DNA of 64,000 nucleotides, taken from positions 33,956 through 97,955 of the forward strand of contig CAYORV010000001.1 of the NCBI GenBank assembly GCA_964406515.1, read 5' to 3'. The notes below the pieces were generated by a model. That model worked only from the letters and a program-made list of their open reading frames with translations, ran no database searches and had not been told where the DNA came from. A program made the position numbers and the translations under genes. This stretch comes from Candidatus Woesearchaeota archaeon (GTDB lineage Archaea > Nanobdellota > Nanobdellia > Pacearchaeales > GW2011-AR1). Position 1 is the first letter of the stretch. Every line of letters begins with the position of its first letter. Of this stretch, positions 32,678 through 47,083 are shown piece after piece.

Positions 32678-32697
32678 CTACATAAATCTTTATAAAT
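32678..32697 (+). promoter_or_regulatory. BRE/TATA-like promoter (ctacataaatcTTTATAAAt)
   Basis: ~21 bp upstream of the ATG at 32717. Confidence 0.5.
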
Positions 32698-32716
32698 TAA
32701 ATTAATAATAAAATTT

Positions 32717-34872: not shown

Positions 34873-34890
34873 CACCATAATTTTTATAAA
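34871..34890 (+). promoter_or_regulatory. TATA-like promoter (aacaccataaTTTTTATAAAt)
   Basis: ~23 bp upstream of the ATG at 34913. Confidence 0.45.
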
Positions 34891-34912
34891 TTAAAATAAG
34901 TAAAGCCATTAT

Positions 34913-35311: not shown

Positions 35312-35314
35312 AAA

Positions 35315-36505
35315 ATGAAAGAGGAGTTAAATAAGAAACAAATTGTGTTCATTGAACCAAAACCAACTGTGACTATGTATCGTGTAGCGAGGAGCTTAAA
35401 ACAAACAGGAAAATATGAAACGATTCTTTTTTCTTTTTCTGAACTTGATAGAGAATTTTATGAAAAAGCTTATGATAAAATTTTTATTTTAGATTTAAGT
35501 CATAAAATTAAAACCAAAGATTTATTTGATTTTTCTAAAAGGATATTAAATGGGAAAGTTAAATCATTTCTTGAAAAAATAAAGAAAATGAGGCCATATC
35601 TTTTTAATATTACTGGACCAGATTTATTCGTTTTTATGGCAATGTCTTCTTTGATAAAAAATCCGAGTCCAAAGATTTATTATCCTAATGATATTTGGGG
35701 GGCACTTAAAAAAAATTACTTTTTTACAAAAGAATTTTGGATAAAGGGGGAATTTCAAAAATTCTTTGAAAAGATTTGTTTTAAAATGGCTGATGGAGTT
35801 CTAAATAAAGGAGCTCCACAACACTTAGATTTGTTGAATTATAGTATAAGTGTTCCAAGGATGGCCCTTCCTTCTTATTGCCTTGATGCTTGGATGTTTC
35901 CTCCAAGAAAAAAGAAAAATAAAGAGATTCATGTTGCTTTTGGGGCGAGCCCAGCACATCCATTATTCTTGGGTGAATTGTCCCACATAGAAATTATAAA
36001 AACCATCACTTCACAGAAGATTCACCTTCATACATATGGGCCTTGTTTTGATGAAAAAGAAAATAAAATCTTTGTTAAAGAATCAAAAAAGAACAAATAT
36101 TATCATTTTCATGGGCTAGTAAAACCTGGTGTGTTAAATAAAGAAATGTCAAAATACAATTATGGTATTTTTTTATTCTTTATGGATCCTGTAAAGGGAA
36201 TCCCATTCACAAAATTAGCAAAACCCATGCTTAATTCAAAGATGATAAACTATCTTGAATCAGGATTGCCAATAATTATAAACAAACAATATGAATATAT
36301 GGCTGGAATAATTGAAAAACATGGTCTAGGGTTGGCAATAGATGCTGAAGATTTAAAAAATCTCAGGAAGATTCTGGAACAAAAAGATTATTCTCAATTT
36401 CAAAAAAATATTAAAAAGTTTCAAAAAGAATTTTGCTTGAGTAAAAAAATAAAAGAAATAGAAGCATTTTATGATAAGATTGTGAAAATTAAAACTCCTT
36501 CTTGA
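35315..36505 (+). CDS. Hypothetical protein, possible GT-B-fold glycosyltransferase-like
   Basis: C-terminal 'KMINYLESGLPIIINK...GLGLAID' resembles the GT-B nucleotide-sugar-binding half. Weak. Confidence 0.3.
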   Translation: MKEELNKKQIVFIEPKPTVTMYRVARSLKQTGKYETILFSFSELDREFYEKAYDKIFILDLSHKIKTKDLFDFSKRILNGKVKSFLEKIKKMRPYLFNITGPDLFVFMAMSSLIKNPSPKIYYPNDIWGALKKNYFFTKEFWIKGEFQKFFEKICFKMADGVLNKGAPQHLDLLNYSISVPRMALPSYCLDAWMFPPRKKKNKEIHVAFGASPAHPLFLGELSHIEIIKTITSQKIHLHTYGPCFDEKENKIFVKESKKNKYYHFHGLVKPGVLNKEMSKYNYGIFLFFMDPVKGIPFTKLAKPMLNSKMINYLESGLPIIINKQYEYMAGIIEKHGLGLAIDAEDLKNLRKILEQKDYSQFQKNIKKFQKEFCLSKKIKEIEAFYDKIVKIKTPS

Positions 36506-36518
36506 GATTTATATACTT

Positions 36519-36540
36519 CACCTAATAAATCTTTAAAAAC
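36519..36540 (+). promoter_or_regulatory. BRE/TATA-like promoter (cacctaataaatcTTTAAAAAC)
   Basis: ~21 bp upstream of the ATG at 36561. Confidence 0.5.
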
Positions 36541-36560
36541 TATCTTCAAAATAAAACTTC

Positions 36561-38771
36561 ATGGAAATCTTGGATAATTTCTCCGACAAAAATTATACAA
36601 CTAGGGAAACATGTAGGGTTTGTGGTTCAGAAAATTTAACTCCTCTTTTTTCATTAGGAGATTTATATATTTCTACTTTTGTTAAAAATCCTTACGAGAG
36701 CATTGGAAAGGCTCCTCTTGAATTAGTATGGTGTGAAAATTGTACATTAGTACAGCTTAAGCATACTGCACCCCAAGAACTTATGTATTCAAAGCATTAT
36801 TGGTATCATTCTAAATTAAATAAGGTTATTGTAGAGGATTTAAGAGAAATAACAGAGATTGCTAATAAAATGGTTGACCTAAAAGAAGGAGATGTTATTC
36901 TTGACATTGGAGCGAATGACGGAACATTGTTGAGTTTTTATCCTTCAAGATACCTTCGAGTTGGATGTGAACCTGCAACAAATTTAATTGAAGATATGAG
37001 AAAACATTGTAATATTGCGATGAATGACTTCTGGACTTATGAGAATTACAAAAATGCTGTTGGAGAAAGAAAAGCAAAAATAATTACTGCTATTGGAATG
37101 TTTTATGATATGGAGGATCCAAATCAGTTTATCCGTGATTCTGCCGAGGCACTTGAAGAAGATGGTGTTTTTATTGCTCAATTGATGACTTCAAAAAAAA
37201 TGTTAGAACAAAATGATATAGGGAATATTTGCCATGAGCATATTGAATATTATTCTTACGAGTCTCTTAAATATCTTTTTGAAAAAAATGGTTTAGAAAT
37301 ATTTAAGGTTGAAGAAAATGCGATTAATGGAGGAAGTTATAGATTGTTTGCAAGAAAATACAAAACAGGAAGTGTTCATTATCCTGAAAACATAACTAAA
37401 GAAAATTATTTAGATTTTGCCAAGAAAATAGAAGAAAACAGACAAAATTGTTTGAATTTACTCAATGAACTCAATAAGCAAGGTAAAAAAATCTATGGTT
37501 ATGGAGCCTCTACAAAAGGGAATACAATTCTCCAATATTATGGTATAGGTACTGGTTTGATTAAAGGAATTGCAGAAATAAGTGAAGAAAAATTTGGCAA
37601 ATATACTGTTGGATCAGGAATTCCAATAATTGAGGAAAAAGAAGCAAAAAAAGATGCAGATTATTTTTTAATCTTGCCTTATGCATTTAGAGATTCTTTT
37701 ATTGAAAAAGAGCAGGAATGGATTAAGAATGGAGGAAAATTTATTTTTGCTTTGCCAGAAGTAGAAATTTATCCTAAGGAAGATTTTGAAAAAAAGAAAA
37801 AAGCTTTAATTTTGGGAATTACTGGGCAGGATGGAAGTTATCTTGCAGAATTTCTTTTAGAAAAAGGATATGAAGTTCATGGGATGATAAGAAAATCTGC
37901 TACAGGAAATACAAAAAATATAAAGCATATTATGGGCAAGATTGTTCTGCATAAGGGGAACTTAACAGACCCTGTTTCAATTTATAAAATCATTGATGAC
38001 GTTAGACCTGAAGAGATTTATAATGAAGCCGATCAAGATCACGTAAGTTGGAGTTTTGATATGGCAGGTTATAGTTATGATGTTACAGGGGCTGCTGTTG
38101 GGAGAATTCTTGAAATAATAAAACAAATTAATCCTAAAATAAAATATTTTCAACCTTTATCATCAAATATTTTTGGAATTCCTGAAGAGACACCCCAGAC
38201 AGAAGAAACTAATGTAAGGCCTCAGAGCCCATATGCTTGTGGAAAAGTGTTAGCCCAAGTTTTGTGTAAATATTATCGGGATGTTTATGGTATGTTTATT
38301 TCTACTGCAATTTTCTACAATCACGAATCTCCAAGAAGAACAGAAGATTATGTGACACATAAAATTACTAAAGCTGCTGTTAAAATCTCAAAAGGATTGC
38401 AAAAAAAATTATCTTTGGGAGATTTATCGACAAGGGTTGATTTTGGTTATGCTCCAGAATACATGGAAGCTGCATGGAATATGATGCAATTAGATAAACC
38501 AGATGATTTTATTATATGTACTGGCGAGACCCATACTGTTCAAGAATTTTTGCAAGAAGCATTTAAAGAAGTGGGATTAAATGCGGATGATTATGTTGAG
38601 TATGACAAACAATTTGAAAGGCCTGGAAAAACAGGAGATCTGATTGGAGATTATTCTAAAGCAAATAGGGCTTTTGGATTTACTCCACGAACTAAATTTA
38701 AAGAGATTGTAAGGATGTTAATTAAAAATGATTTAAAGGAAGTTGAGAGGGAAATGCAGGAAAATGATTGA
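36561..38771 (+). CDS. Fusion of an NDP-hexose C-methyltransferase (TylC3/TcaB9-like, N-terminal Zn ribbon) with a GDP-mannose 4,6-dehydratase
   Basis: N-term 'CRVCGS...CENCTLVQL' Cys4 ribbon plus 'LDIGANDGTLL' MTase. C-term '[31 protein letters not shown]', 'YNEADQDHV', 'PYACGK' (GMD/SDR). Confidence 0.7.
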   Translation: MEILDNFSDKNYTTRETCRVCGSENLTPLFSLGDLYISTFVKNPYESIGKAPLELVWCENCTLVQLKHTAPQELMYSKHYWYHSKLNKVIVEDLREITEIANKMVDLKEGDVILDIGANDGTLLSFYPSRYLRVGCEPATNLIEDMRKHCNIAMNDFWTYENYKNAVGERKAKIITAIGMFYDMEDPNQFIRDSAEALEEDGVFIAQLMTSKKMLEQNDIGNICHEHIEYYSYESLKYLFEKNGLEIFKVEENAINGGSYRLFARKYKTGSVHYPENITKENYLDFAKKIEENRQNCLNLLNELNKQGKKIYGYGASTKGNTILQYYGIGTGLIKGIAEISEEKFGKYTVGSGIPIIEEKEAKKDADYFLILPYAFRDSFIEKEQEWIKNGGKFIFALPEVEIYPKEDFEKKKKALILGITGQDGSYLAEFLLEKGYEVHGMIRKSATGNTKNIKHIMGKIVLHKGNLTDPVSIYKIIDDVRPEEIYNEADQDHVSWSFDMAGYSYDVTGAAVGRILEIIKQINPKIKYFQPLSSNIFGIPEETPQTEETNVRPQSPYACGKVLAQVLCKYYRDVYGMFISTAIFYNHESPRRTEDYVTHKITKAAVKISKGLQKKLSLGDLSTRVDFGYAPEYMEAAWNMMQLDKPDDFIICTGETHTVQEFLQEAFKEVGLNADDYVEYDKQFERPGKTGDLIGDYSKANRAFGFTPRTKFKEIVRMLIKNDLKEVEREMQEND

Positions 38772-39240
38772 GTTAAATGGGAAAAAAGAAAAAATAGTTA
38801 TGGTTAGTGGGGGATTTGATCCATTGCATTTGGGACACTTGCTTTCTTTTCAAGCAGCTAAAAGATTAGGTGATAAGCTTGTAGTAGTTATTGATGGAGA
38901 TGAATATTTAATAAAAAAGAGAGGGCATGTTTTTATGCCGATTGAAGATAGAATTGCCATAATAAGGGAGTTGGAGTGTGTAGATGATGTAATTACTATG
39001 GGTGATGGGGATCTTAGTGAAACAATCTTGCATATGAAACCAGATATCTTTGCAAACGGAGGAGATAAAAATCTTTTAGAAAAAATTCCTTCCTCTGAAA
39101 TAGAGGCCTGTGAAAAAGTAGGATGTAAAATTATTTTTAATGTTGGTGGAGGAAACAAATTGAGATCAAGTTCTGAATTATTAGATAGGTGGGTGACATT
39201 AAATAAAAATAAACTAATTAAAAATGAAGAAAGATTTTGA
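38764..39240 (+). CDS. Cytidylyltransferase-fold nucleotidyltransferase (HxGH)
   Basis: 'IVMVSGGFDPLHLGHLLSFQAAKRLGDKLVVVI'. The ATG at 38764 gives an ATGA-type 8-nt overlap with the upstream gene. The track start is at 38743. Confidence 0.6.
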   Translation: MIELNGKKEKIVMVSGGFDPLHLGHLLSFQAAKRLGDKLVVVIDGDEYLIKKRGHVFMPIEDRIAIIRELECVDDVITMGDGDLSETILHMKPDIFANGGDKNLLEKIPSSEIEACEKVGCKIIFNVGGGNKLRSSSELLDRWVTLNKNKLIKNEERF

Positions 39241-40102
39241 AATTGAGAAAACACAAGAGAGTATTCCTCTTATTAGAAAGAATATTGAAAATACAAAGAT
39301 TGTGTATTGTTTTGGATTAAGTGCAGCAGATCCTGAAAATCTTGATAGACTAAGAGAAAGTAAAAAATATTTAGAACATGTTCTTAATCCTATGATTGAG
39401 AAAGGAGAGGTTGGAGATGGCGTTAAAAGTAAATGGGATGATAGAAAGTTTAGGTTTCATTCAGCTAATTTAAAAGATAGCAAATTAGAATTAAATTTAG
39501 GGATAACACATTATCAAGAATGTGCTAATTGTAGATGTTGGGATGAAGAAAAAAGAATTAAAATGATTAAAGAGGGTGAAAAGATATTTAGTGACCCCAA
39601 CGCATTTTTTACAAGAGGATGTGGGATAGGAGTCACACCTATAACCTCTGAAGGTTCTATTTTTGTAGGAAAAAGACAAACTGAAGATAGTTCATATTCT
39701 GGAGAATTGGGTGCGATTAATGGATGGGTTGATTATGTGGAAAGAGTAGATGAGATTGATTTTACATTAGATGTTTTAAGAGAGATGAAAGAAGAATATG
39801 GTATACTTGAAAAAGATATTGATAAATTAATTTTTTCAGCAATAATCTCTCCACCTTCAAGGGCCGACACTGATTTTAGTTATCTTGCTTTATTGAGAAT
39901 TAATGATGAAAAATTCTTAGAAAGATTTCAAACAAGGCAAGATAGAGAACATGGTGAACTTGTTCAAATAGCAAATTATAGTGACATGCAAATATTATTA
40001 CAAACAGGAAGGTTGCCTAAAATTGAAGAAAAATTTAATCTTCTTTATTGCTTAAGAGCTTCTTTAGAACAAATAAAACCTAATGAAATGGTTCTAAATT
40101 AG
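39224..40102 (+). CDS. Hypothetical protein (degenerate Nudix-like segment at best)
   Basis: 'GWVDYVERVDEIDFTLDVLREMKEEYGI' loosely resembles a Nudix box but is not canonical. Confidence 0.3.
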   Translation: MKKDFEIEKTQESIPLIRKNIENTKIVYCFGLSAADPENLDRLRESKKYLEHVLNPMIEKGEVGDGVKSKWDDRKFRFHSANLKDSKLELNLGITHYQECANCRCWDEEKRIKMIKEGEKIFSDPNAFFTRGCGIGVTPITSEGSIFVGKRQTEDSSYSGELGAINGWVDYVERVDEIDFTLDVLREMKEEYGILEKDIDKLIFSAIISPPSRADTDFSYLALLRINDEKFLERFQTRQDREHGELVQIANYSDMQILLQTGRLPKIEEKFNLLYCLRASLEQIKPNEMVLN

Positions 40103-40155
40103 AATATATTCCCTACCTTCTAAAAACTTATAAAACAATTCTCTTTATTCTCCAA

Positions 40156-41301
40156 ATGGTAAAAGAAAAGGACTTATACAAAATACGAGCGGAAATTTCT
40201 CCTGGTTTTAATTACTATTTTGATAAGTTTACTTCTCTTTTTGTAAAAAGTAAGACACATCCAATAAAGAATCCTAAAAAGATTTTGTTTATACGAAATG
40301 ATCATATCGGAGACATGGTTTATTCTACTCAAATTTTTAGAGAAATTAAGAAAATTTTTCCAAATACTAAAATTAGTGTTTTAGCTACAAGGAGCAATAG
40401 AGAAATAATAGAAAAAGATCCTTATGTTGATGAAATTTTGGAGATAGATCTTTTTTGGAGAAGAGGATTAAGGGGGTTTTTAGATTATTTTAAGATACTT
40501 AAAAAAATAAAAAAAGAGAAATTCGACGTAGGTGTTGATCTTAGAAGAAGTAAATTGAATATTATTTTTTTCTTATGGATTCCTAAGATTAAAGCACGAG
40601 CAAGTTTCTATAATTTAAATGGTGGAAAAGCATTTTTGACCCATCCTATTTTGTATGACAAAAAAGCGAATTATGCTCAAGAAAATATTAGATTAATCAA
40701 CAAAGTTTTTGGATTAGATATTAAAAATTATTTGCCGCATGTTATAGCTGATAAAGAAGATGAAAAAGAAGTGGAAAAGTTATTAAAGAAAAATGATTTG
40801 AAAAAATATGTTGTTTTTGCTCCAGGAGCAACTGCAAATTCTAAAAGATGGCCTGAAGAAAAATTCAAAGAGTTAATTGAACGATTTCATGATAAATATC
40901 CCAATCATAAGATTATCTTATCTGGAGCAGGAAGTGACACAAATCTGATAAGGAGATTAGGTGATGATAGAGATTTTTGTGTTCCACTTATTAATTTTAA
41001 TTTAAGATTGATGTCAGTTATTTTCAAAAAGGCAGGAGCTGTTGTTGCTAATGACGGATGCGCAACAGATATATGCTGGGTTGCGGGAGGAAATTTGGTT
41101 GCACTTGTTGGACCAGTCGATTTGGAACTTTGCAAACCTTTAAAGAAAAGTAAAATAATTCATCACAAGGTAGATTGTTATCCTTGTTTTTGGGCAAGAG
41201 AATGTGAAAAGCCTAAAAAAGAATGGTGTATGAATTTAATCACTACTGACGAAGTTATAAAAGCTATTCATGAATTTATGGGAGAAAATAAATTATCTTA
41301 G
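40156..41301 (+). CDS. GT9-family glycosyltransferase (ADP-heptose:acceptor heptosyltransferase-like)
   Basis: 'KKILFIRNDHIGDMVYSTQIFREIKKIFPNTKISVLA' and 'VVFAPGATANSKRWPEEKFKELIERF' match RfaC/RfaF/WaaQ conserved blocks. Confidence 0.65.
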   Translation: MVKEKDLYKIRAEISPGFNYYFDKFTSLFVKSKTHPIKNPKKILFIRNDHIGDMVYSTQIFREIKKIFPNTKISVLATRSNREIIEKDPYVDEILEIDLFWRRGLRGFLDYFKILKKIKKEKFDVGVDLRRSKLNIIFFLWIPKIKARASFYNLNGGKAFLTHPILYDKKANYAQENIRLINKVFGLDIKNYLPHVIADKEDEKEVEKLLKKNDLKKYVVFAPGATANSKRWPEEKFKELIERFHDKYPNHKIILSGAGSDTNLIRRLGDDRDFCVPLINFNLRLMSVIFKKAGAVVANDGCATDICWVAGGNLVALVGPVDLELCKPLKKSKIIHHKVDCYPCFWARECEKPKKEWCMNLITTDEVIKAIHEFMGENKLS

Positions 41302-42159
41302 ACATAACACATTTTTTGCGAAGGGGTTTAAATTAATTATTTCTTTTCCTTCCATTAATATTAAATCTTTTTTGTCTTCGTCAAGATAATAAAAATTAAA
41401 ATTAAGTTTCTTTAAAAGTTTCAGATATTTTTCTTGCCCAAATTTAGAACGTTCAAGTCCTCCAGGAAATAATTCAGTAATTAGTTTAATCTTAGGGTTC
41501 TCTTTTAGTAAATTTTCTCCCCCCATAACAACATAGGGTTCAGCACCTTCTACATCCATCTTAATGAAATTTATTTTCTTATCCAAATTCTTAAAATAAT
41601 CATCTAAACTTATGGCTTCAACTTCAACAGAAGAATGAAAAGATTTGGATTCGAATAAACTACTTGATGCGGAATGTATATTATCTGAATGTAACTTCTT
41701 TTTTTCAAATTTATCTGAAACTGCTTTTTGTTCAAGAATAACATTCTGGTATTTATTTATTTCAACATTTTTCTTCAATAAAGAAAAATTGCTTGGGTCT
41801 GGTTCAAAAGCATAAACTTTACCCTCGTCCCCAACTAACTTTGCAAGAAGCAGAGTATAAAAACCAATATTAGCGCCCAGATCAATAACAATATCTCCTT
41901 TTTTAACAAGGCTTTTTATTGTTTCTGCTTCTAATTCCTCTCTTTCCCAATTAGTATGAACACTTAAATGTAATGCATCATATTTATCTAAGAATAATTT
42001 ATGCCCTTCGGAAGTAATAATAAATTCTGGTTTTAATTTCTTGCGGATATTATCATTTAACTTCATAATCTTTTTTGATTTAGTTAAGAAAGTATTGTTA
42101 AACATATTTACTAATTTTTTATAACTTTTTGCTAATAATTCTTTAGTTTTGATACCCAT
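41293..42159 (-). CDS. FkbM-family SAM-dependent methyltransferase
   Basis: 'IVIDLGANIGFYTLLLAK' FkbM motif. Confidence 0.6.
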   Translation of the reverse strand: MGIKTKELLAKSYKKLVNMFNNTFLTKSKKIMKLNDNIRKKLKPEFIITSEGHKLFLDKYDALHLSVHTNWEREELEAETIKSLVKKGDIVIDLGANIGFYTLLLAKLVGDEGKVYAFEPDPSNFSLLKKNVEINKYQNVILEQKAVSDKFEKKKLHSDNIHSASSSLFESKSFHSSVEVEAISLDDYFKNLDKKINFIKMDVEGAEPYVVMGGENLLKENPKIKLITELFPGGLERSKFGQEKYLKLLKKLNFNFYYLDEDKKDLILMEGKEIINLNPFAKNVLCLR

Positions 42160-42260
42160 TATATTATTTAATTAATGTCCCTTATAAATTTTTATATAAA
42201 ACATAATAAAAAATTAATAAATGCTAATGAATTTATGAGTAAAAAATAGTAATATATATT

Positions 42261-42282
42261 TTCCCTCAATAATCTTTAAAAG
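42261..42282 (+). promoter_or_regulatory. BRE/TATA-like promoter (ttccctcaataatcTTTAAAAG)
   Basis: ~22 bp upstream of the ATG at 42304. Confidence 0.55.
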
Positions 42283-42303
42283 ACATCATCTTCTTTTGCA
42301 TTA

Positions 42304-43377
42304 ATGAAAAGAGCGTTAATAACTGGAATTACAGGACAGGATGGAAGTTATCTTGCTGAATTTTTAATCAATTTAGGTTATGAGGTTCATGGAATTGTTA
42401 GAAGAAGCAGTTCACATAATCGTGGGAGGATAGATCATCTCACAAGTGCAGACAAACACACTTCTATAGCGCAAGAAAATCCAATTTTGCATCACGGAGA
42501 TTTGACGGATTCTTCTTCTGTTGAAAATATTATAAGAGAAGTTAAACCTGACGAAGTTTATAATCTCGGTGCGCAAAGCCATGTTCGGATTAGTTTTGAT
42601 ATCCCCGAAAACACTGCGAATATTGTGGCTTTAGGAACACAGAGAGTTCTAGAAGCTATTAGAAAATTCTGCCCTGATGCAAAATTTTACCAAGCTAGCT
42701 CTTCTGAAATGTTCGGAAAAGTCACAGAAACTCCCCAAACAGAAGAAACTCCCTTTCATCCTAGGAGCCCTTATGGATGCGCCAAAGTCCATGCCCATTA
42801 TATTACTATAAACTACAGGGAAGCTTATGGAATTCACGCATCAAATGGAATTTTATTTAATCATGAAAGTGAAAGACGAGGAGAAAATTTTGTTACAAGA
42901 AAAATTACAAGAAATCTTTCCAGAATTAAAGTAGGAATCCAAAAAAATTTCTCTCTTGGAAATCTTAATGCTGAGAGAGATTGGGGACATGCTCAAGATT
43001 ATGTAAGAGCCATGTGGATGATGCTCCAACAAGAAAATCCAGATGATTATGTTATTGGTACAGGAGAAAAACATTCTGTGAGGGAATTTATTAAAGAAAC
43101 AGCGAAATGTCTTGGAATGGACCTCAAATCAAATGGAGAGGAAGGAGTAAATGAAAAATATATCGATGAGAAAGGAAATGTTGTCATAGAAATTAACCCA
43201 TTATATTTTAGACCGTCAGAAGTAGATTTACTTTTTTCTAATCCTTCTAAAGCAAAAAATGTGTTAGGCTGGGAACCCAAAATTAGATTTAAGGAACTTG
43301 TTAAAAAGATGGTGGATGCTGATTTGACTCTTGCTGAAAAAGAAGCGCAAATAAATCAAAGAATTAAAACATTTTAA
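42304..43377 (+). CDS. gmd: GDP-mannose 4,6-dehydratase
   Basis: '[37 protein letters not shown]', 'YNLGAQSHV', 'SPYGCAKV...Y' and 'NHESERRG' are all GMD hallmark blocks. Confidence 0.8.
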
Positions 43378-44448
43378 ATGGAATATAAATATCCTATAGC
43401 AAAACCCTGCTTAAAGGGAAACGAATTGGAATATGTCACAAATGCCGTTAAAACCGGATGGATTTCTTCTCAAGGAGATTATGTGAAAAGATTTGAAGAA
43501 AAATTTGCTGAATGGAACAGCACTAAATATGGGGTTTCATGTTCTTCAGGAACAGCAGCACTTCTCATAGCATTAAGGGCATTAGGGATCAAACAAGGAG
43601 ATGAGGTTATTGTTCCAGAATTTACAATGATTGCTTCTGCTTGGGCGGTTAGTTATACTGGAGCAACTCCTGTTTTTGTGGATTGTAAGGATGACTTGAA
43701 CATCAATGAAAAACTTATAGAAGAAAAGATAACTGAAAAAACAAAAGCTATAATGCCTGTTCATATTTATGGGAGAAGGTGCAACATGGAAAAGATTATG
43801 GATCTTGCTTATAACTACAATTTGTTTGTTGTTGAAGATTCTGCAGAAGGCCATGGAATAAAACCTGTTGGAGATATTGCTTGCTTTTCTCTTTTTGCTA
43901 ATAAAATCATAACTTCGGGAGAAGGGGGAATTTGCGTAACAAATAACAAACGATTAGCAGAACAAATGGTTCATTTGAGAGGTATGGCTTTTACTCCAGA
44001 ACATGATTTTATACATAAAAAACTTGCTTATAATTTTAGGATAACTAATTTACAAGCAGCGGTTGCACTTGCTCAGACAGAAAAGATAAATGAATTTCTG
44101 CAAAAGAGAAAACAAATAGAATTTTGGTATGATGAAAATTTAAGGAATATCCCTCAAATTCAATTAATGCCCAATCGCGAGGTCTTATGGATGTATGATG
44201 TTTTAGTTAAAGATAGAGATAAATTAATGGAATATTTAAAGGAAAATGGAATTGAAACAAGGAAATTTTTTAGACCAATGAGTCAACAACCAATGTATTT
44301 TGATGAAAATTGGAAGAACCTCAATGCTGTTAAATTTAGTGATAGTGGAATTTATCTTCCAACTTATTTTGAACTAAAAGAGGAGGATATAAGATTTATT
44401 GCTAATAAAATAAGGGAATTTTATTCTGGAGTAGAAAATGTCCAATAA
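43378..44448 (+). CDS. DegT/DnrJ/EryC1-family PLP sugar aminotransferase (GDP-perosamine synthase-like)
   Basis: 'KAIMPVHIYGRRCNMEKIMDLAYNYNLFVVEDSAEGHG', 'SLFANKIITSGEGG'. Immediately follows gmd. Confidence 0.75.
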   Translation: MEYKYPIAKPCLKGNELEYVTNAVKTGWISSQGDYVKRFEEKFAEWNSTKYGVSCSSGTAALLIALRALGIKQGDEVIVPEFTMIASAWAVSYTGATPVFVDCKDDLNINEKLIEEKITEKTKAIMPVHIYGRRCNMEKIMDLAYNYNLFVVEDSAEGHGIKPVGDIACFSLFANKIITSGEGGICVTNNKRLAEQMVHLRGMAFTPEHDFIHKKLAYNFRITNLQAAVALAQTEKINEFLQKRKQIEFWYDENLRNIPQIQLMPNREVLWMYDVLVKDRDKLMEYLKENGIETRKFFRPMSQQPMYFDENWKNLNAVKFSDSGIYLPTYFELKEEDIRFIANKIREFYSGVENVQ

Positions 44449-44893
44449 GATATCTAATGAATTGTACGATCAGATTTTAGAGAACATTCCTATTTGTTGT
44501 GTTGATATTATAGTATCTCATAATGGCAAAGTTTTACTAATACATCGTAAAGAAGAACCTGCTAAGGATAAATGGTGGGTTGTTGGAGGAAGAATTTTGA
44601 AAGGAGAAAAATTTATAGAGGCGGTCAAACGAAAAGTAAAAGAAGAGGTTGGATTAGAAATTGAGGTCGAAAAAAGGGTTGGTGTTTACGAACTTATTTT
44701 TGAACAGGGGGATTCTTTAGAGGTAAGAGATGGCACTCATGCTGTAACAATTGTGTATTTGGTTAAACCTTCTAAAGAACAAGATATAAAAATTGATGCA
44801 ACAAGTTCAGACCATAAATGGATTAATGGTATTGAAGAAGACTTAGATCCTTATATTAAACAAATTTTAAAAGATTCAGAGGTTTTTGATTAA
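44438..44893 (+). CDS. Nudix hydrolase (GDP-mannose mannosyl hydrolase Gmm/NudD-like)
   Basis: 'GGRILKGEKFIEAVKRKVKEEVGLEI' canonical Nudix box Gx5Ex7REUxEExGU. Confidence 0.6.
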   Translation: MSNKISNELYDQILENIPICCVDIIVSHNGKVLLIHRKEEPAKDKWWVVGGRILKGEKFIEAVKRKVKEEVGLEIEVEKRVGVYELIFEQGDSLEVRDGTHAVTIVYLVKPSKEQDIKIDATSSDHKWINGIEEDLDPYIKQILKDSEVFD

Positions 44894-47083
44894 ATGGAAG
44901 TATCTCCTGCAGAAATAATCGATAGAATGAGCATTGTTCGATTAAAAATAGAACGAATAGGAAATCCTGAATTAAATTTAGAGATGACTGCGCTGAAACA
45001 AGCACTTGAAGAATTTAGAGAGGGAGAGATTCATATTGAAGATGGGTGGCTTGATGAACTTTATGATATAAATTCAAAAGAATGGGATTTATTAGATAAG
45101 ATGAATGAAGAGAAAAACAAAGGGAATTATGAGGAGGTTGGAAAATTATACTTGGAAACAGAGATGTTGAATAAAAAGAGAAGCAATGTTAAAAATAAAA
45201 TTGTCGAAAAAACAGAAAAGGGATTTAGGGAAATTAAAAAAGGTCATATTTCTGATATGGATAATAAGGAACTAGAAGAAGAAAATAAAAAAGTTCTTCA
45301 AGAAGAGTGTGTAAAAGTTTCTCTTGAAACAGCTAGGGGGGGAATTAAAGAATCCTGTGTGCTTCCAGAACATTTAAGTCAATATGAGGTGGATATTAGT
45401 CCGGAGACTAAAGCCGTGCTTATTACTCCAGACATGGGAAAAGTGAGTAATAAAGATGAAATCATAATTCCAAATCTTCATAATGGTCTCTTTCGGATTC
45501 ATGCATTTCTTCATGAAAAAAATATCTCCTCAGTTACATTGGATACTAGCCTTGATAATGTAAAAAGAGCGTGGGAGTTAATTGGTCGGCACAAGCCCCC
45601 TTTTATTGCATTTAGTCCTTATTATGATAGCATACGTAATGATTTAAACAACGTTGTAAAGGTTCTTGAACTTTCTCCCAATTCTATTATTGTAGCTGGA
45701 GGATTTGAAGCATCACTTAACCCTCAATGGGAAACTCTCGGGGGATTGATAGATATTCTTGTCAAAGGCGAAGGAGAATGGGCTTTAACAGAATTGATTC
45801 AAAGGCATCAAAAGTTTTTTCAGGATAATCCTTATGCAGACAAATTAAAATTTTTAGAGTATTTAAAAAAAGACTTTGAAATTCATCCAATTCCAGGAGT
45901 TTCTATTTTGAGTGCAGATGGCACAATACAAACATCTCCTGTAAAAAAGAGAATTGACCCTAATTTGTATCAGGAAATAAATCTCAATGCATTTCAAAAG
46001 TATCTATCTCTTTCACCAATCGAAAAATATTGGAAGATTAATCGGTGGTTATTTGGGGGTAAAAAGGATGCGTATTTTCGTTTTGTTTCTAGTGATCACT
46101 GCCCCTATAAGTGTGTTTTTTGCCAAAGTTCTGTTTATTATTCAAAAATTATGGGGAAAAAATTTTCTCCTGTTCGTTATATCAATCCTGAAAATATATT
46201 AAAAATAATCAAAGCTGTTTCAGACCAACTTCCATTTATTAATGGTATGTATATAGATGATGAGAATTTTATAATCAATCGTGAGCGTGCAATTGAAGCA
46301 TTAAATTTGATCATTGATGGACGGGAAACTGGAGAAATACGAAAGGACATAGTATTTCAGTGTAGAACAAGAACAGATAATATTGATTCGGAGATTTGCA
46401 GACTCTTGAAACAAGCAGGTTTTGAAACAGTATCTGTAGGATCCGAAAGTTATTCTTCTAAGGAATTGGAATATTTAAATAAAAATACTTCTCCCGAACA
46501 AAATTTGAAAGCAATTAAAATTATACTGGATAGTGGACTCAATGTAGCGGAGAATTATATTTTGTTTACTCCTGCCACAACTGCAGATACATTTTATGAT
46601 AATGCTTTGAGAATTTGTCAGAATATTGGGGAATTGGGTGTTGATGGAACTGCTACATTATTTTTAACTCCTCTTCCCGGGACTAAATTGTGGGGGGATG
46701 GAAATTATGAAATAGTGAGAGATTTTCCTTACAAACAAGAATTATTTAAAAATAAAGTGATGTTTTATAATCCAAAAACAGGATATGATTATATCGGAGA
46801 AGAAATTAAAGTTCCGGGAACAAATAGTATTCTTCCTCACCCTGAAATTATGTTGGTAAATAATCCTTTAATGCGTAAAGTTTCCTTGGAATTTCTCCAG
46901 CATCTCCCAAAAACTATTAATTATTTTAGAGAACTTGCAGGTGGAGAACATTCTCTTTCTAGAGAATTTATTACCTTGGCCAATCTCTCGGCAGCTTCAG
47001 AAATCTTATATGGATTAACAAAAGAACAACGTTGGAAGGATTTAAACAATAGAATTGAAGAGATTGTGAGAAAGAAATCCTAA
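44894..47083 (+). CDS. Cobalamin-binding radical SAM enzyme with a ~250-aa N-terminal extension
   Basis: 'SSDHCPYKCVFCQSS'. B12-binding segment 'VLELSPNSIIVAGGFEAS'. N-terminal charged / coiled-coil-like region has no known motif. Confidence 0.65.
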   Translation: MEVSPAEIIDRMSIVRLKIERIGNPELNLEMTALKQALEEFREGEIHIEDGWLDELYDINSKEWDLLDKMNEEKNKGNYEEVGKLYLETEMLNKKRSNVKNKIVEKTEKGFREIKKGHISDMDNKELEEENKKVLQEECVKVSLETARGGIKESCVLPEHLSQYEVDISPETKAVLITPDMGKVSNKDEIIIPNLHNGLFRIHAFLHEKNISSVTLDTSLDNVKRAWELIGRHKPPFIAFSPYYDSIRNDLNNVVKVLELSPNSIIVAGGFEASLNPQWETLGGLIDILVKGEGEWALTELIQRHQKFFQDNPYADKLKFLEYLKKDFEIHPIPGVSILSADGTIQTSPVKKRIDPNLYQEINLNAFQKYLSLSPIEKYWKINRWLFGGKKDAYFRFVSSDHCPYKCVFCQSSVYYSKIMGKKFSPVRYINPENILKIIKAVSDQLPFINGMYIDDENFIINRERAIEALNLIIDGRETGEIRKDIVFQCRTRTDNIDSEICRLLKQAGFETVSVGSESYSSKELEYLNKNTSPEQNLKAIKIILDSGLNVAENYILFTPATTADTFYDNALRICQNIGELGVDGTATLFLTPLPGTKLWGDGNYEIVRDFPYKQELFKNKVMFYNPKTGYDYIGEEIKVPGTNSILPHPEIMLVNNPLMRKVSLEFLQHLPKTINYFRELAGGEHSLSREFITLANLSAASEILYGLTKEQRWKDLNNRIEEIVRKKS

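What the first reader, a model, noticed from the sequence alone, without database searches (positions are those of the whole stretch)
36561..44893. C-methyltransferase-GMD fusion plus a second stand-alone Gmd/Per/Gmm module: predicted C-methylated GDP-6-deoxy(amino)hexose
36561..38771 fuses a TylC3/TcaB9-type NDP-ketosugar C-methyltransferase (Cys4 Zn ribbon plus MTase) to a full GDP-mannose 4,6-dehydratase. These are normally separate proteins, so the product of the dehydratase (a 4-keto-6-deoxy intermediate) would be handed directly to the C-methylase. Four kb downstream, a canonical gmd, a DegT-family aminotransferase and a Gmm-like Nudix form a GDP-perosamine-type module. With the neighbouring HxGH nucleotidyltransferase (38764..39240), FkbM methyltransferase and GT9, this predicts branched or C-methylated 6-deoxy(amino)hexoses on the glycan.
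Basis: partly seen in the sequence, partly recalled or inferred. Interest (0 to 1): 0.6.

Follow-up and report, generated by a model that had tools for sequence, protein, structure and literature searches.

The report
Sugar C-methyltransferase fused to disabled dehydratase
The fused gene is real, but its "dehydratase" half lacks the residue that does the dehydration, so it is probably a plain C4 redox enzyme serving the methyltransferase; this uncharacterised pair occurs in many microbial lineages (tiny DPANN archaea, CPR bacteria, the ocean bacterium Pelagibacter) and is labelled an ordinary dehydratase in the few source annotations that name it.

Summary
ORF 36561..38771 fuses a complete TylC3/TcaB9/MtmC-type sugar C-methyltransferase (C-MT) to a domain 44-50% identical to GDP-mannose 4,6-dehydratase (GMD). 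That second domain is not a full dehydratase. The glutamate that removes the C5 proton is Asn536. The domain scores below NCBI's gmd cut-off (328 vs 415 bits). It belongs to a monophyletic Glu-less clade, here called GMD*, with 107-109 members, none with Glu.

GMD* keeps the NADP site and the Ser/Tyr/Lys triad. It has its own signature: the second RR-loop Arg is Asn, and Ala115 and Ser117 (MUR1 numbering) are Asp.

The fusion is not unique. At least 44 proteins share this layout, and many bacteria carry the two halves as adjacent genes. Fusions in the opposite order (GMD then C-MT) keep the Glu.

The downstream Gmd/DegT/Nudix genes are not a separate module. In a Nanoarchaeia relative all the genes form one compact operon. 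Across 160 loci, a DegT gene accompanies 22 of 25 well-flanked C-MT+GMD* pairs.

Best reading: GMD* is a non-dehydrating C4 oxidoreductase. It most likely opens the 4-keto group that the methyltransferase needs, on the way to a GDP-linked C-methyl amino sugar. A finishing 4-ketoreductase role is nearly as likely. This is a new variant of a known kind.

The parts
36561..38771 (+). 736-aa fusion protein: sugar C-methyltransferase (aa 1-403), short linker (aa about 404-412), Glu-less GMD paralogue 'GMD*' (aa 413-727)
   Evidence: ORF and translation. Pfam domains. Solved-structure matches for each half. Identical protein on 5 contigs. AlphaFold mean pLDDT 86.9, pTM 0.55, linker residues 407-410 disordered.
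36612..37757 (+). C-methyltransferase half: Cys4 zinc ribbon (C18, C21, C58, C61), SAM-binding domain (LDIGANDGT) and C-terminal C-MT domain, with an invariant H225-E226-H227 motif
   Evidence: PF08421 49.9 bits, PF13489 53.3 bits, PF08484 124.7 bits, all above cut-off. Full-length alignment to MtmC (144 bits), KijD1 and TcaB9. Invariant columns in alignment A1.
37797..38741 (+). GMD* domain. It keeps GxxGxxG, R444 of the GxxRR motif, S534, Y558, K562 and NHESPRR. It has lost the dehydration Glu (N536), the second RR-loop Arg (N453), and has D491 and D493 where GMDs have Ala and Ser.
   Evidence: PF16363 325 bits. TIGR01472 328 bits, below the 415 cut-off. Alignment to MUR1 and human GMD. Clade-wide residue counts.
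38166..38168 (+). Codon AAT = Asn536, at the position of the catalytic Glu of GMDs (MUR1 E164, human E157)
   Evidence: Changing a Glu codon (GAA/GAG) to AAT needs two base changes. In the clade this position is N in 93, T in 11, H in 3 and E in 0.
38764..39240 (+). HxGH (GGFDPLHLGH) nucleotidyltransferase, closest to the RfaE domain II heptose-1-P adenylyltransferase and cytidylyltransferase families. It overlaps the end of the fusion gene.
   Evidence: PF01467 50.9 bits. TIGR02199 71 bits, below cut-off. Its orthologue is fused to a 73%-identical C-MT in P0045. It lies in the L002 operon.
39224..40102 (+). orf292: a divergent two-domain Nudix protein (REMKEEYGI box), candidate NDP-sugar pyrophosphatase
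   Evidence: No Pfam or PDB sequence match. AlphaFold model (pLDDT 66 overall, about 90 in the C-terminal half). Best Foldseek match is human NUDT22 at E=4e-9, followed by Nudix hydrolases that include NUDT12 and NudC as well as NDP-sugar and ADP-ribose pyrophosphatases. Conserved next to the fusion in L002, L003, L004, L009, L019 and L094.
40156..41301 (+). GT9-family (heptosyltransferase-like) glycosyltransferase
   Evidence: PF01075 68 bits. Heptosyltransferase II model 93 bits, below cut-off. Orthologues lie next to the C-MT gene in L002 (486 bits) and L166 (469 bits).
41293..42159 (-). FkbM-family methyltransferase (probable sugar O-methylation); membership in the pathway is uncertain
   Evidence: PF05050 78 bits, TIGR01444 107 bits. 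FkbM homologues appear in some related loci: L038, L077, L085.
42304..43377 (+). Canonical GDP-mannose 4,6-dehydratase (QASSSEMFG, YxxxK, NHESERR); the real dehydratase of the locus
   Evidence: TIGR01472 516 bits, above the 415 cut-off. PF16363 465 bits. Motifs checked.
43378..44448 (+). DegT-family PLP aminotransferase, closest to GDP-perosamine synthase (a C4 aminotransferase); the PLP lysine context 'NKIIT' is kept
   Evidence: PF01041 332 bits. Best solved matches are the Caulobacter perosamine synthases 3bn1 and 3dr4 at 261 bits. ColD-type dehydratases score only about 89 bits. A DegT gene accompanies 22 of 25 well-flanked C-MT+GMD* loci.
44438..44893 (+). Gmm-like Nudix hydrolase (GDP-sugar hydrolase family)
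   Evidence: PF00293 53 bits. The NF011963 Gmm model is the best NCBIfam hit but scores 52 bits, below the 146 cut-off. Best solved match is E. coli Gmm 1rya, aligned over almost its full length. Homologues are fused to the C-MT in P0054, P0056, P0057, P0059, P0060 and P0034.
44894..47083 (+). 729-aa B12-binding radical SAM enzyme (possible second, radical methylation step); a possible member only
   Evidence: PF04055 and PF02310. Its start follows the Nudix stop codon directly. Free-standing ORFs matching its N-terminal part sit next to the GT9 gene in L002 and L166.
35315..36505 (+). 396-aa putative glycosyltransferase directly upstream of the fusion gene
   Evidence: The source record lists Gtf3_C for it. 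Weak NCBIfam sugar-transferase hits. An orthologue (334 bits) lies in the related island L166.

Best explanation
The protein combines two enzymes. The N-terminal half is a SAM-dependent NDP-ketosugar C-methyltransferase of the TylC3/TcaB9/MtmC kind. It needs a 4-keto sugar nucleotide so that the neighbouring carbon (C3 or C5) can be deprotonated and methylated. The C-terminal half, GMD*, descends from GDP-mannose 4,6-dehydratase. It keeps the NADP(H) pocket and the Ser/Tyr/Lys machinery that oxidises or reduces C4. It has lost the glutamate that removes the C5 proton, so it can perform C4 redox chemistry but not the 4,6-dehydration.

The fusion is one component of a conserved cassette: C-MT + GMD* + Per-like DegT aminotransferase, often with a Gmm-like Nudix and a WbuC-like cupin. 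In this window the cassette also includes a genuine Gmd, a nucleotidyltransferase, a second Nudix (orf292) and a GT9.

My preferred mechanism is 'oxidation first'. GMD* oxidises C4 of a GDP-hexose (GDP-mannose) with NADP+ and stops there, leaving the 6-OH in place. The tethered C-MT methylates the adjacent carbon. DegT then transaminates C4, giving a GDP-4-amino-4-deoxy-C-methyl-hexose. Where no aminotransferase takes the keto sugar, GMD*-NADPH re-reduces C4. The stand-alone Gmd supplies the 6-deoxy series (GDP-perosamine and possibly its C-methyl form) to the same downstream enzymes.

Shown: the domain identities, the loss of the Glu, the clade signature, the gene associations and the wide distribution. 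Inferred: the direction of the redox step, the GDP-mannose substrate, the position of methylation, the order of steps and the final product.

I put about 0.8 on the general claim 'C4 redox partner, not a dehydratase', and about 0.4 on the specific oxidation-first mechanism.
For: 1. The catalytic Glu is absent. MUR1 E164 aligns with N536 in an ungapped motif (YYQAGSSEMFG against YFQPLSSNIFG). The role of this Glu as the C5 base in dehydration is stated in PMC2792337 and PMC3584063.

2. The loss is a conserved family trait, not decay. The Glu-less domains form one monophyletic clade (76 tips with no Glu inside; 109 tips). Mean identity within the clade is 63%. Across 107 members, Ser/Thr is kept in 107, Tyr in 106, Lys in 107, the N-H of NHES in 107 and the first Arg of GxxRR in 107. 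The Glu position is N in 93, T in 11, H in 3 and E in 0. Clade-specific changes are the second RR-loop Arg to Asn (107/107), Ala115 to Asp (107/107) and Ser117 to Asp (106/107). The Glu position co-varies with the NHES motif: N pairs with NHE (93) and T with NHD (10). These patterns indicate a selected, working active site with altered cofactor surroundings.

3. The domain fails NCBI's gmd equivalog cut-off (328 vs 415 bits), while the neighbouring stand-alone Gmd passes (516 bits).

4. The contrast between architectures is informative. The 25 fusions in the opposite order (GMD then C-MT) keep the Glu. All 44 proteins in the C-MT~GMD* order lack it, the only exception in that order being P0099.

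5. The cassette logic favours a keto-generating role. Among C-MT+GMD* loci with at least 5 kb on both sides (n=25), 22 have DegT, 14 have a Nudix and only 9 have a Glu-type Gmd within 10 kb. C-MT loci whose partner is a genuine Gmd have DegT in 1 of 7 and a small RMD/GMER-like reductase directly adjacent in 4 of 7. C-MT loci with other partner SDRs have DegT in 1 of 28.

6. A related island, L166, carries [Gmd(Glu)-C-MT]-Nudix-DegT with no reductase beside it. In aminotransferase-type cassettes the SDR therefore sits in the keto-generating position.

7. A precedent exists for a GDP-sugar SDR that releases a 4-keto product without 6-deoxygenation: Cj1427 of Campylobacter jejuni (PMC10680097).

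8. The genes form a single unit. L002 has the compact operon GT9, C-MT~GMD*, Nudix, nucleotidyltransferase, orf292, Gmd, DegT. Close C-MT relatives are fused to the Nudix, the nucleotidyltransferase, a cupin, or 2x Nudix plus GMD*.
Against: No enzyme was assayed, so the direction of the redox step rests only on gene context.

This window, L002 and about a third of well-flanked loci do carry a genuine Gmd close by. That is what a 'Gmd, then C-MT, then ketoreductase' route would need.

Absence of gmd within 10 kb is weak evidence, because the gene may lie elsewhere in the genome. I could not scan whole genomes.

GMD* keeps an NADP(H)-type pocket, and NADPH-linked enzymes usually run in the reductive direction in cells.

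GMDs of several bacteria are reported to have 4-ketoreductase side activity (PMC3539893).

Three well-flanked loci (L017, L029, L053) have neither DegT nor Gmd nearby.

4-Amino-4-deoxy hexoses that keep the 6-OH are, to my knowledge, rare in known glycans.

GDP as the nucleotide is inferred only from homology. Two canonical GMD motifs differ in GMD* (RDWG becomes [IV]D.G and RPxEV becomes RPxKT). I could not verify what those residues contact.
Confidence: 0.4

Rival explanations
1. Methylate, then reduce. The stand-alone Gmd makes GDP-4-keto-6-deoxymannose. The C-MT half methylates C3 or C5. GMD* uses NADPH to reduce the 4-keto group, giving a GDP-6-deoxy-C-methyl-hexose of the evalose or virenose type. 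DegT, working with Gmd, separately makes GDP-perosamine for the same glycan, or aminates another position.
For: A Glu-type Gmd lies in the same gene cluster here and in L002, L012, L027, L033 and L043, among others. Classical cassettes are Gmd + C-MT + reductase: L007, L011, L013, L035 and L164, and the cyanophage DSL-LC02, which carries Gmd, C-MT and GDP-fucose synthase in a row. The proposed GDP route to virenose in Coxiella has the same logic (PMC3539893). The three-gene cassettes L014, L047 and L055 are Gmd, C-MT and a Glu-less GMD-like SDR, with no DegT. GMDs are reported to have reductase side activity, and MtmC, the closest solved C-MT, is reported to be a bifunctional methyltransferase and 4-ketoreductase. 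GMD* keeps an NADP(H) pocket and has lost an RR-loop Arg, which would fit an exchangeable cofactor.
Against: This reading does not explain why DegT accompanies 88% of C-MT+GMD* pairs but only 4-14% of C-MT pairs with other partners. A 4-keto group can be reduced or transaminated, not both. The cassette [Gmd(Glu)-C-MT]-Nudix-DegT in L166 has no reductase beside it. The His/Gln/Leu/Lys-type partner SDRs form a separate clade, so the inference from them is by analogy only. GMD* is far closer to GMDs (298 bits) than to the solved reductase RMD (95 bits).
Confidence: 0.3
2. One reading: the C-terminal half is still a working 4,6-dehydratase that hands its product to the fused methylase. Another residue, for example the clade-specific Asp491 or Asp493, would have taken over the role of the lost Glu.
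For: Everything else that marks a GMD is kept: 44-50% identity, NHESPRR, Ser/Tyr/Lys and the NADP motif. GMD* occupies the same place in DegT-type cassettes as a genuine Gmd does in L166. Two new, essentially invariant acidic residues (Asp in 107/107 and 106/107 members) appear in the loop after strand beta-4 near the cofactor, and a third position is Glu in 76 of 107.
Against: The Glu is described as the conserved C5 base of GMDs. No Glu or Asp occurs at that position in 107 sequences, and the residue varies among N, T and H. To my knowledge, the acid/base residues of sugar-nucleotide 4,6-dehydratases lie in the beta-5 loop, not the beta-4 loop. By my own alignment with GalE, the new Asp residues fall at the position of the GalE residue that contacts the nicotinamide ribose. 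A genuine Gmd sits nearby in this window and in a third of related loci, which would be redundant. The domain scores below the gmd cut-off.
Confidence: 0.12
3. The GMD* half is catalytically silent. It acts as a docking or substrate-binding module, for example pairing with the genuine Gmd in a mixed oligomer so that the methyltransferase is held next to the real dehydratase.
For: GMDs work as dimers or tetramers. The catalytic Glu is lost. A Gmd is present in the cluster here.
Against: Tyr, Lys, Ser and the NADP motif are kept in 106-107 of 107 members, and active-site positions co-vary. Pure scaffolds usually let such residues drift. The second RR-loop Arg, thought to contribute to oligomer contacts, is lost. 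Most loci have no Gmd within 10 kb.
Confidence: 0.05

Closest known systems
TylC3 / TcaB9 / KijD1 / MtmC NDP-hexose C-methyltransferases (solved: 4rv9, 5t64, 3ndi)
   Same: The same three-part architecture: Cys4 zinc ribbon, SAM domain and C-terminal domain. The alignment runs full length, and the Glu-His pair in the ...HEH... motif is conserved.
   Different: Those enzymes stand alone and act on dTDP-sugars in actinomycete antibiotic pathways. Here the enzyme is fused to an SDR and sits among GDP-sugar genes. Identity is low (144 bits to MtmC). The regiochemistry (C3 or C5) is unknown.
GDP-mannose 4,6-dehydratase (E. coli Gmd, A. thaliana MUR1 1n7g, human GMDS 6gpj)
   Same: The fold, 44-50% identity, GxxGxxG, the first Arg of GxxRR, Ser/Thr, YxxxK and NHESPRR.
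   Different: The catalytic Glu is Asn. The second RR-loop Arg is Asn. Ala115 and Ser117 are Asp. RDWG and RPxEV are altered. The domain scores below the TIGR01472 cut-off. It works like the first (oxidative) or a reversed (reductive) half-reaction of a GMD, not like a GMD.
Gmd + C-methyltransferase + reductase as separate genes: the proposed GDP route to virenose in Coxiella burnetii (PMC3539893), the sugar C-methyltransferase TiaS2 of tiacumicin biosynthesis (PMC6963833), and the cassette of Synechococcus phage DSL-LC02
   Same: C-methylation of a mannose-derived 4-keto sugar nucleotide, followed by processing of the keto group.
   Different: In those systems the dehydratase has its Glu, the enzymes are separate proteins and the keto group is reduced. 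Here the SDR next to the C-MT cannot dehydrate, is fused to the C-MT, and is tied to an aminotransferase.
[quoted passage not shown]
   Same: An SDR that oxidises C4 of a GDP-sugar and releases the 4-keto product without removing the 6-OH, feeding downstream tailoring enzymes. This is the activity proposed here.
   Different: It does not appear among solved-structure matches at E <= 1e-10, so it is not a close relative. It uses tightly bound NAD(H) that is recycled by alpha-ketoglutarate, and it acts on a heptose.
ArnA / ArnB of the 4-amino-arabinose pathway (own knowledge, not tested here)
   Same: An SDR domain that oxidises C4 of a sugar nucleotide is fused to a second tailoring domain, and a DegT-family aminotransferase then aminates C4. 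Some related loci also carry an ArnC-like GT2 gene (L005).
   Different: ArnA also decarboxylates, keeps the Glu and uses UDP-glucuronate. Its fused partner is a formyltransferase, not a C-methyltransferase.
EvaA-E route to epivancosamine (own knowledge, not tested here)
   Same: A fold-for-fold parallel with the full bacterial cassette: Nudix-fold enzyme, DegT aminotransferase, TylC3-type C-MT, cupin and SDR ketoreductase.
   Different: The Nudix here is a small Gmm-like hydrolase with a largely intact Nudix box, not an EvaA-type 2,3-dehydratase. It is absent from the SAR11-type cassettes. The DegT is closest to a C4 (perosamine) aminotransferase rather than a C3 one.

Membership tests
TylC3/TcaB9-type NDP-ketosugar C-methyltransferase | N-terminal Cys4 zinc-binding domain (PF08421) | tested here: met
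   PF08421 49.9 bits against a cut-off of 31.3. C18, C21, C58 and C61 are invariant in 26 members.
TylC3/TcaB9-type NDP-ketosugar C-methyltransferase | Class I SAM-binding domain plus the family-specific C-terminal domain (PF08484) | tested here: met
   PF13489 53.3 bits (cut-off 27) and PF08484 124.7 bits (cut-off 23.5). End-to-end alignment to MtmC, KijD1 and TcaB9.
TylC3/TcaB9-type NDP-ketosugar C-methyltransferase | Conserved active-site Glu-His (Y-x-E-H in MtmC and KijD1) | tested here: met
   H225-E226-H227 is invariant and aligns with the 'YHEH' of MtmC and 'YDEH' of KijD1. The catalytic role of these residues is from my own knowledge.
TylC3/TcaB9-type NDP-ketosugar C-methyltransferase | SAM-dependent C-methylation of a 4-keto sugar nucleotide | not testable with these tools
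   Needs an enzyme assay.
GDP-mannose 4,6-dehydratase (TIGR01472 gmd): fused C-terminal half | Score at or above the curated equivalog cut-off | tested here: not met
   328.2 bits against a cut-off of 415. The stand-alone 42304..43377 scores 516.3 bits.
GDP-mannose 4,6-dehydratase (TIGR01472 gmd): fused C-terminal half | Glu that abstracts the C5 proton (MUR1 E164, human E157) | tested here: not met
   N536. The clade has 0 Glu in 107 members. The residue's role is given in PMC2792337 and PMC3584063.
GDP-mannose 4,6-dehydratase (TIGR01472 gmd): fused C-terminal half | SDR triad Ser/Thr + YxxxK, and the GxxGxxG cofactor motif | tested here: met
   S534, Y558, K562 and GITGQDG.
GDP-mannose 4,6-dehydratase (TIGR01472 gmd): fused C-terminal half | GxxRR motif and the RR loop | tested here: not met
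   The first Arg is kept (GMIRK). The second RR-loop Arg (MUR1 R69) is Asn in 107 of 107 clade members. The feature is defined in PMC3584063.
GDP-mannose 4,6-dehydratase: stand-alone 42304..43377 | Equivalog score, the Glu, the triad and NHES | tested here: met
   516 bits (cut-off 415). [16 protein letters not shown] and NHESERR.
GDP-4-keto-6-deoxymannose reductase (RMD) | Closer to RMD than to GMD | tested here: not met
   RMD 2pk3 scores 95 bits against 298 bits for GMD. A ketoreductase activity is nevertheless not excluded.
GDP-perosamine synthase (Per): 43378..44448 | DegT fold with the PLP lysine; closest to Per among solved structures | tested here: inconclusive
   3bn1 261 bits, lysine context NKIIT kept. 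The best NCBIfam model is the LegC family at 296 bits, below its 420 cut-off. C4 regiochemistry and GDP specificity were not tested.
GDP-mannose mannosyl hydrolase (Gmm): 44438..44893 | Score at or above the NF011963 cut-off | tested here: not met
   52 bits against a cut-off of 146, although it is the best NCBIfam hit and the best solved match (1rya, 41.5 bits). By eye the Nudix box keeps EE but has RK in place of RE. This is a family-level resemblance only.

The most novel reading that the evidence does not exclude
GMD* is a previously unrecognised enzyme activity: a GDP-hexose C4-dehydrogenase evolved from GMD by deleting the dehydration step. Together with its fused or adjacent C-methyltransferase and a Per-like aminotransferase, it would make a class of GDP-linked C-methyl 4-amino sugars not yet described in cell-surface glycans. 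The cassette has spread horizontally through DPANN archaea, CPR bacteria, SAR11 and many other phyla. In this archaeal lineage the finished sugar may in addition be moved from GDP onto another nucleotide. The NUDT22-like Nudix (orf292) would cleave the GDP-sugar to sugar-1-phosphate, the RfaE-II-like nucleotidyltransferase would re-activate it, and the GT9 transferase would use the new donor.
Probability: 0.3. Interest if true: 0.75.

Novelty: new variant of a known kind. Interest (0 to 1): 0.55.

Why it matters
Where a source annotation names these proteins at all, it calls them 'GDP-mannose 4,6-dehydratase'. The sequence evidence says they cannot be that enzyme, so pathway reconstructions that count them as Gmd are wrong.

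The C-MT+GMD* pair, with its aminotransferase, marks an uncharacterised surface-sugar pathway. It is found in Pelagibacter (SAR11), which to my knowledge is among the most abundant marine bacteria, and in the little-studied DPANN and CPR lineages. In such organisms surface glycans plausibly govern host attachment, phage recognition and grazing.

Mechanistically, it is a clean natural experiment. One substitution, with a small set of co-changes around the cofactor, appears to convert a redox-neutral dehydratase into a plain C4 oxidoreductase. The question can be settled with two simple LC-MS assays.

Tried and rejected
1. Heptose-specific identity for the SDR half. The window has a GDP-heptose-like gene set and a GT9, so I considered this. 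The solved GDP-heptose 4,6-dehydratase 7us5 scores only 71 bits against 298 for GMD, and Cj1427 is not among matches at E <= 1e-10. Rejected as an orthology claim.

2. RMD orthology. Rejected: 95 bits.

3. A fixed interface or channel between the two halves. AlphaFold gives pTM 0.55 and a disordered linker. No support.

4. The His/Gln/Leu/Lys-type partner SDRs as sisters of GMD*, which would have carried a ketoreductase inference across. They form a separate outer clade.

5. orf132 (34913..35311) as the missing WbuC-like cupin. No similarity. No cupin homologue was found anywhere in the window.

6. orf292 by sequence. Nothing in Pfam or the PDB. It was identified only by fold.

7. Literature search for a characterised C-MT/GMD fusion or a Glu-less GMD. 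None found.

8. Papers I could not read. King 2009 (GMD/RMD), Webb 2004 (P. aeruginosa GMD) and Huddleston 2020 (Cj1427 structure) are not held. I therefore could not verify what RMD and Cj1427 carry at the Glu position, or which GMD residues contact guanine.

9. Whole-genome check for gmd in cassette-bearing genomes.

10. L097, the Glu-retaining sister of the clade, lacks the GMD* signature residues. It gives no order of events.

Full report
**1. What is at the coordinates**

ORF 36561..38771 (+) is a single 736-codon reading frame. Pfam finds four domains, all above their cut-offs:
- Methyltransf_13, the zinc ribbon, aa 18-76
- Methyltransf_23, aa 97-247
- Methyltransf_14, aa 279-399
- GDP_Man_Dehyd, aa 416-719, E = 6.8e-97

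Each half was searched separately against all PDB sequences. The N-terminal 410 aa align end to end with the sugar 3-C-methyltransferases MtmC (4rv9, 144 bits), KijD1 (5t64) and TcaB9 (3ndi). The C-terminal 326 aa align end to end with GDP-mannose 4,6-dehydratases: A. thaliana MUR1 at 298 bits and human GMDS at 267 bits. The reductase RMD (2pk3) scores 95 bits and the GDP-heptose 4,6-dehydratase 7us5 scores 71 bits.

The four zinc cysteines (C18, C21, C58, C61), the LDIGANDGT SAM motif and an H225-E226-H227 motif are invariant in 26 family members. That last motif aligns with the Y-x-E-H of MtmC and KijD1.

The exact protein is encoded on five assembled contigs. One is a 213-kb JGI metagenome contig that also carries the neighbouring genes seen in this window. 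The fusion is therefore real.

- HxGH nucleotidyltransferase, 38764..39240
- GT9, 40156..41301
- FkbM methyltransferase, 41293..42159 (-)
- Canonical gmd, 42304..43377
- DegT, 43378..44448
- Gmm-like Nudix, 44438..44893

**2. The C-terminal half is not a full dehydratase**

In the ungapped alignment to MUR1, the motif YYQAGSSEMFG corresponds to YFQPLSSNIFG in the window protein. MUR1 Glu164 (human Glu157) is Asn536, codon AAT at 38166..38168. Two reviews or papers describe this Glu as the base that handles the C5 proton and the C6 hydroxyl in the dehydration step (PMC2792337; PMC3584063).

The rest of the SDR machinery is intact: GITGQDG, the first Arg of GxxRR, S534, Y558-x3-K562 and NHESPRR.

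The domain scores 328 bits against NCBI's gmd equivalog model, whose cut-off is 415. The stand-alone Gmd 3.5 kb downstream scores 516 bits and has QASSSEMFG.

**3. A family trait, with an informative contrast**

A search with the whole protein returned 120 listed relatives. Locating the domains in each gave three groups:
- 45 proteins in the order C-MT then GMD, counting the window protein
- 25 proteins in the order GMD then C-MT
- 51 proteins with the C-MT but no GMD domain

All 25 GMD-then-C-MT fusions keep S/T-S-E. Of the C-MT-then-GMD fusions, 44 lack the Glu; P0099 is the single exception.

I added domains from 160 fetched loci. The Glu-less domains, called GMD* here, form one monophyletic clade in neighbour-joining trees. 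It has 76 tips in the first tree and 109 in the extended tree, and neither tree places a Glu-bearing sequence inside it. Mean identity is 63% within the clade and 44% to canonical GMDs.

Residue counts in 107 clade members:

| Position | GMD* clade | Canonical GMD (n=68) |
|---|---|---|
| Ser/Thr | 107 | kept |
| Tyr | 106 | kept |
| Lys | 107 | kept |
| N-H of NHES | 107 | N 68, H 66 |
| Glu position | N 93, T 11, H 3, E 0 | E 68 |
| Second RR-loop Arg (MUR1 R69) | Asn 107 | Arg 64 |
| Ala115 | Asp 107 | Ala 66 |
| Ser117 | Asp 106 | Ser 64 |

The Glu position co-varies with the NHES motif: N pairs with NHE (93 sequences) and T pairs with NHD (10 sequences). This is the pattern of a selected, working active site whose dehydration function was removed and whose cofactor surroundings were remodelled. 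It does not look like a decaying domain.

**4. Distribution**

The fusion or the adjacent gene pair occurs in the following groups:
- Nanoarchaeia, Woesearchaeota, Iainarchaeum and other archaeal MAGs
- Peribacteria, Saccharibacteria and other Patescibacteria
- Pelagibacter, including a complete genome, and Pelagibacteraceae single-cell genomes
- OM43, Nitrospinota and Planctomycetales
- Delta- and gammaproteobacterial MAGs

In many bacteria the two halves are separate adjacent genes, for example L005 9968..11179 and 11183..12166.

The nearest relatives of the window protein are archaeal: L002 (Nanoarchaeia) at 68% identity, P0023 ('archaeon') and P0034 (Nanoarchaeota). The window probably comes from a DPANN archaeon. 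This is an inference; no marker gene lies in the window.

Where a source names these proteins, the name is 'GDP-mannose 4,6-dehydratase'.

**5. One pathway, not two modules**

In L002 the genes lie head to tail in one strand run: GT9, C-MT~GMD*, Nudix, nucleotidyltransferase, orf292, Gmd, DegT. These are the same genes as window 36561..44893, in a different order.

Close relatives of the C-MT half (about 70% identical) occur in several other fused forms:
- Fused to the Gmm-like Nudix (P0054, P0056, P0057, P0059, P0060)
- Fused to the orthologue of the window's nucleotidyltransferase (P0045)
- Fused to a roughly 130-aa cupin (P0044, P0048, P0051, P0053)
- As 2x Nudix + C-MT + GMD* in one 1102-aa protein (P0034)

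The cupin is WbuC-like. It is present in 51 of 160 loci, usually directly upstream of DegT, but it is absent from this window and from L002.

Typical bacterial gene orders are cupin-DegT-C-MT-Nudix-GMD*-GT2 (L023) and C-MT-GMD*-GT2-cupin-DegT (Pelagibacter L005).

Co-occurrence counts, by the type of SDR partner next to the C-MT:

| Partner of the C-MT | Loci counted | DegT | Nudix | Glu-type Gmd elsewhere within 10 kb | Small RMD/GMER-like SDR adjacent |
|---|---|---|---|---|---|
| GMD* (>= 5 kb both flanks) | 25 | 22 | 14 | 9 | 3 |
| Genuine Gmd (>= 5 kb both flanks) | 7 | 1 | 0 | 0 | 4 |
| Other divergent SDR (all loci) | 28 | 1 | 0 | 5 | not counted |

The aminotransferase is therefore specifically tied to the GMD* type.

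**6. Function of GMD***

Without the Glu, the scaffold can still oxidise C4-OH with NADP+, which is the first half-reaction of GMD. It can also reduce a 4-keto sugar with NADPH, a side activity reported for several GMDs. Two readings compete.

*Oxidation first.* GMD* provides the 4-keto group without 6-deoxygenation, the C-MT methylates, and DegT consumes the keto group. Supporting points:
- The DegT association.
- Many cassettes have no Gmd within 10 kb.
- L166 is a related archaeal-type island with orthologous GT9 (469 bits), Gtf3-like glycosyltransferase (334 bits) and Gmd (562 bits). Its cassette is [Gmd(Glu)-C-MT]-Nudix-DegT with no reductase beside it. In aminotransferase-type cassettes the SDR is thus the keto generator.
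- Cj1427 is a precedent for a GDP-sugar C4-dehydrogenase that releases its keto product (PMC10680097).

*Ketoreductase.* Gmd makes the keto sugar, the C-MT methylates, and GMD* reduces. Supporting points:
- A genuine Gmd is present in this window and in about a third of well-flanked loci.
- Classical cassettes are Gmd + C-MT + reductase: L007, L011, L013, L035, L164 and the cyanophage DSL-LC02.
- L014, L047 and L055 carry Gmd, C-MT and a Glu-less GMD-like SDR with no DegT.
- The pocket is of the NADP(H) type.
- The closest solved C-MT, MtmC, is reported to combine methyltransfer with 4-ketoreduction.

The loss of the RR-loop Arg and the new Asp residues fit an exchangeable cofactor. By my own alignment with GalE, those Asp residues fall at the position of the GalE residue that contacts the nicotinamide ribose. 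This fits either reading.

My estimates are:
- Oxidation first, including a redox-neutral variant where no aminotransferase intervenes: about 0.4
- Ketoreductase: about 0.3
- Residual dehydratase using another base: about 0.12
- Silent docking domain: about 0.05

I put about 0.8 on the common core, 'C4 redox partner of the methyltransferase, not a dehydratase'.

**7. Other members of the locus**

DegT is closest to Caulobacter GDP-perosamine synthase (261 bits, PLP lysine kept). It is far from the ColD-type dehydratases.

The 151-aa Nudix is closest to E. coli Gmm but scores well below NCBI's cut-off for that family.

orf292 has no sequence-level family. Its AlphaFold model has pLDDT about 90 in the C-terminal half. 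The best structural match is human NUDT22, followed by other Nudix hydrolases, including NDP-sugar and ADP-ribose pyrophosphatases. It carries a REMKEEYGI Nudix box.

The RfaE-II-like nucleotidyltransferase and the GT9 lie next to orf292. Their orthologues stay with the C-MT in L002 and L166, and weaker homologues of both lie close upstream of the C-MT in L016. Together this suggests, but does not show, that the finished sugar is moved from GDP to another nucleotide before transfer.

**8. Structure prediction of the fusion**

AlphaFold gives mean pLDDT 86.9 and pTM 0.55. Residues 407-410 fall below pLDDT 50. The model shows two confidently folded domains on a short flexible tether with no predicted fixed interface. 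Proximity is plausible; a channel is not supported.

**9. Comparison with what is known, and verdict**

The N-terminal half is a member of the TylC3/TcaB9 family; every sequence-level feature tested was met. The C-terminal half resembles GMD but fails three defining features: the equivalog score, the catalytic Glu and the RR loop. It should not be filed as a Gmd.

Literature searches found no characterised C-MT/GMD fusion and no Glu-less GMD. The nearest described systems are:
- The proposed GDP route to virenose in Coxiella (PMC3539893)
- The sugar C-methyltransferase TiaS2 of tiacumicin biosynthesis (PMC6963833)
- Cj1427 (PMC10680097)

The finding is a real, widespread, uncharacterised variant of a known kind of sugar-nucleotide tailoring system.

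Noticed in passing
window 6684..11965: A run of genes resembling a GDP-D-glycero-manno-heptose pathway: NTP_transferase (6684..7430), a GHMP kinase fused to a HAD phosphatase (7493..9217), a second GHMP kinase (9288..10259), a SIS_2 isomerase (10260..10871) and an SDR (10868..11965). It may relate to the GT9 gene in the finding.
   Followed up: no
window 52196..59139: A phosphonate-decoration cluster: a cytidylyltransferase fused to PEP mutase (52196..53638), a ThDP decarboxylase (53635..54756), an Fe alcohol dehydrogenase (54753..55856), two type I phosphodiesterase-family proteins (55856..58687) and a second cytidylyltransferase-like gene (58684..59139).
   Followed up: no
window 4643..52317 (scattered): An unusual density of radical SAM genes within 64 kb. 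Five are B12-binding radical SAM enzymes (13484..15022, 19138..20784, 25482..26909, 44894..47083, 50899..52317). Four are SPASM radical SAM enzymes (4643..5671, 17020..18018, 17990..19129, 26934..28079). All sit among glycosyltransferases.
   Followed up: no
window 30179..34872: An acetolactate-synthase-like ThDP enzyme (30179..31969), an E1_dh protein (32717..33331) and a 514-aa protein (33328..34872). The first ~185 aa of the 514-aa protein match a Transket_pyr ORF in L166, and the rest is an SDR. These are candidates for attaching a two-carbon branch to a keto sugar, like YerE or AviB1/B2 (own knowledge). That would be a second kind of branched sugar in the same island.
   Followed up: partly
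window 39224..40102: orf292 has no Pfam or PDB sequence match but folds as a two-domain Nudix protein. The best structural match is human NUDT22, a UDP-glucose/galactose hydrolase (its activity is from my own knowledge). Only 14 homologues were found by the word-based search.
   Followed up: yes
window 44894..45460; L002 8348..8716; L166 7066..7488 and 7558..7911: The N-terminal ~190 aa of the 729-aa B12 radical SAM protein form a helical extension with no family assignment. Matching free-standing small ORFs sit next to the GT9 gene in two related islands.
   Followed up: partly
relatives P0074 and P0113: In two relatives the C-methyltransferase gene is interrupted by an intein with LAGLIDADG and intein-splicing domains. 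The methyltransferase matches are split at about residues 220 and 580.
   Followed up: no
L168 5980..9174 (Synechococcus phage DSL-LC02, OR032571.1): A cyanophage carries a classical cassette in a row: Gmd with its Glu (STSEMFG), a TylC3-type C-methyltransferase and a GDP-fucose-synthase-like epimerase/reductase, followed by glycosyltransferases and an FkbM methyltransferase. This suggests a phage-encoded route to a C-methyl 6-deoxyhexose.
   Followed up: partly
GMD* domain, window aa 624-629 and 687-691 (about 38430..38447 and 38619..38633): Two canonical GMD motifs differ across the GMD* clade. RDWG becomes [IV]D.G (window RVDFG) and RPxEV becomes RPxKT (window RPGKT). If these residues contact the phosphate or guanine, the nucleotide specificity may have changed. 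I could not verify their roles.
   Followed up: partly
window 47385..50531: Two paralogous sulfatase genes on the minus strand (47385..48830 and 49101..50531), directly after the sugar cluster.
   Followed up: no
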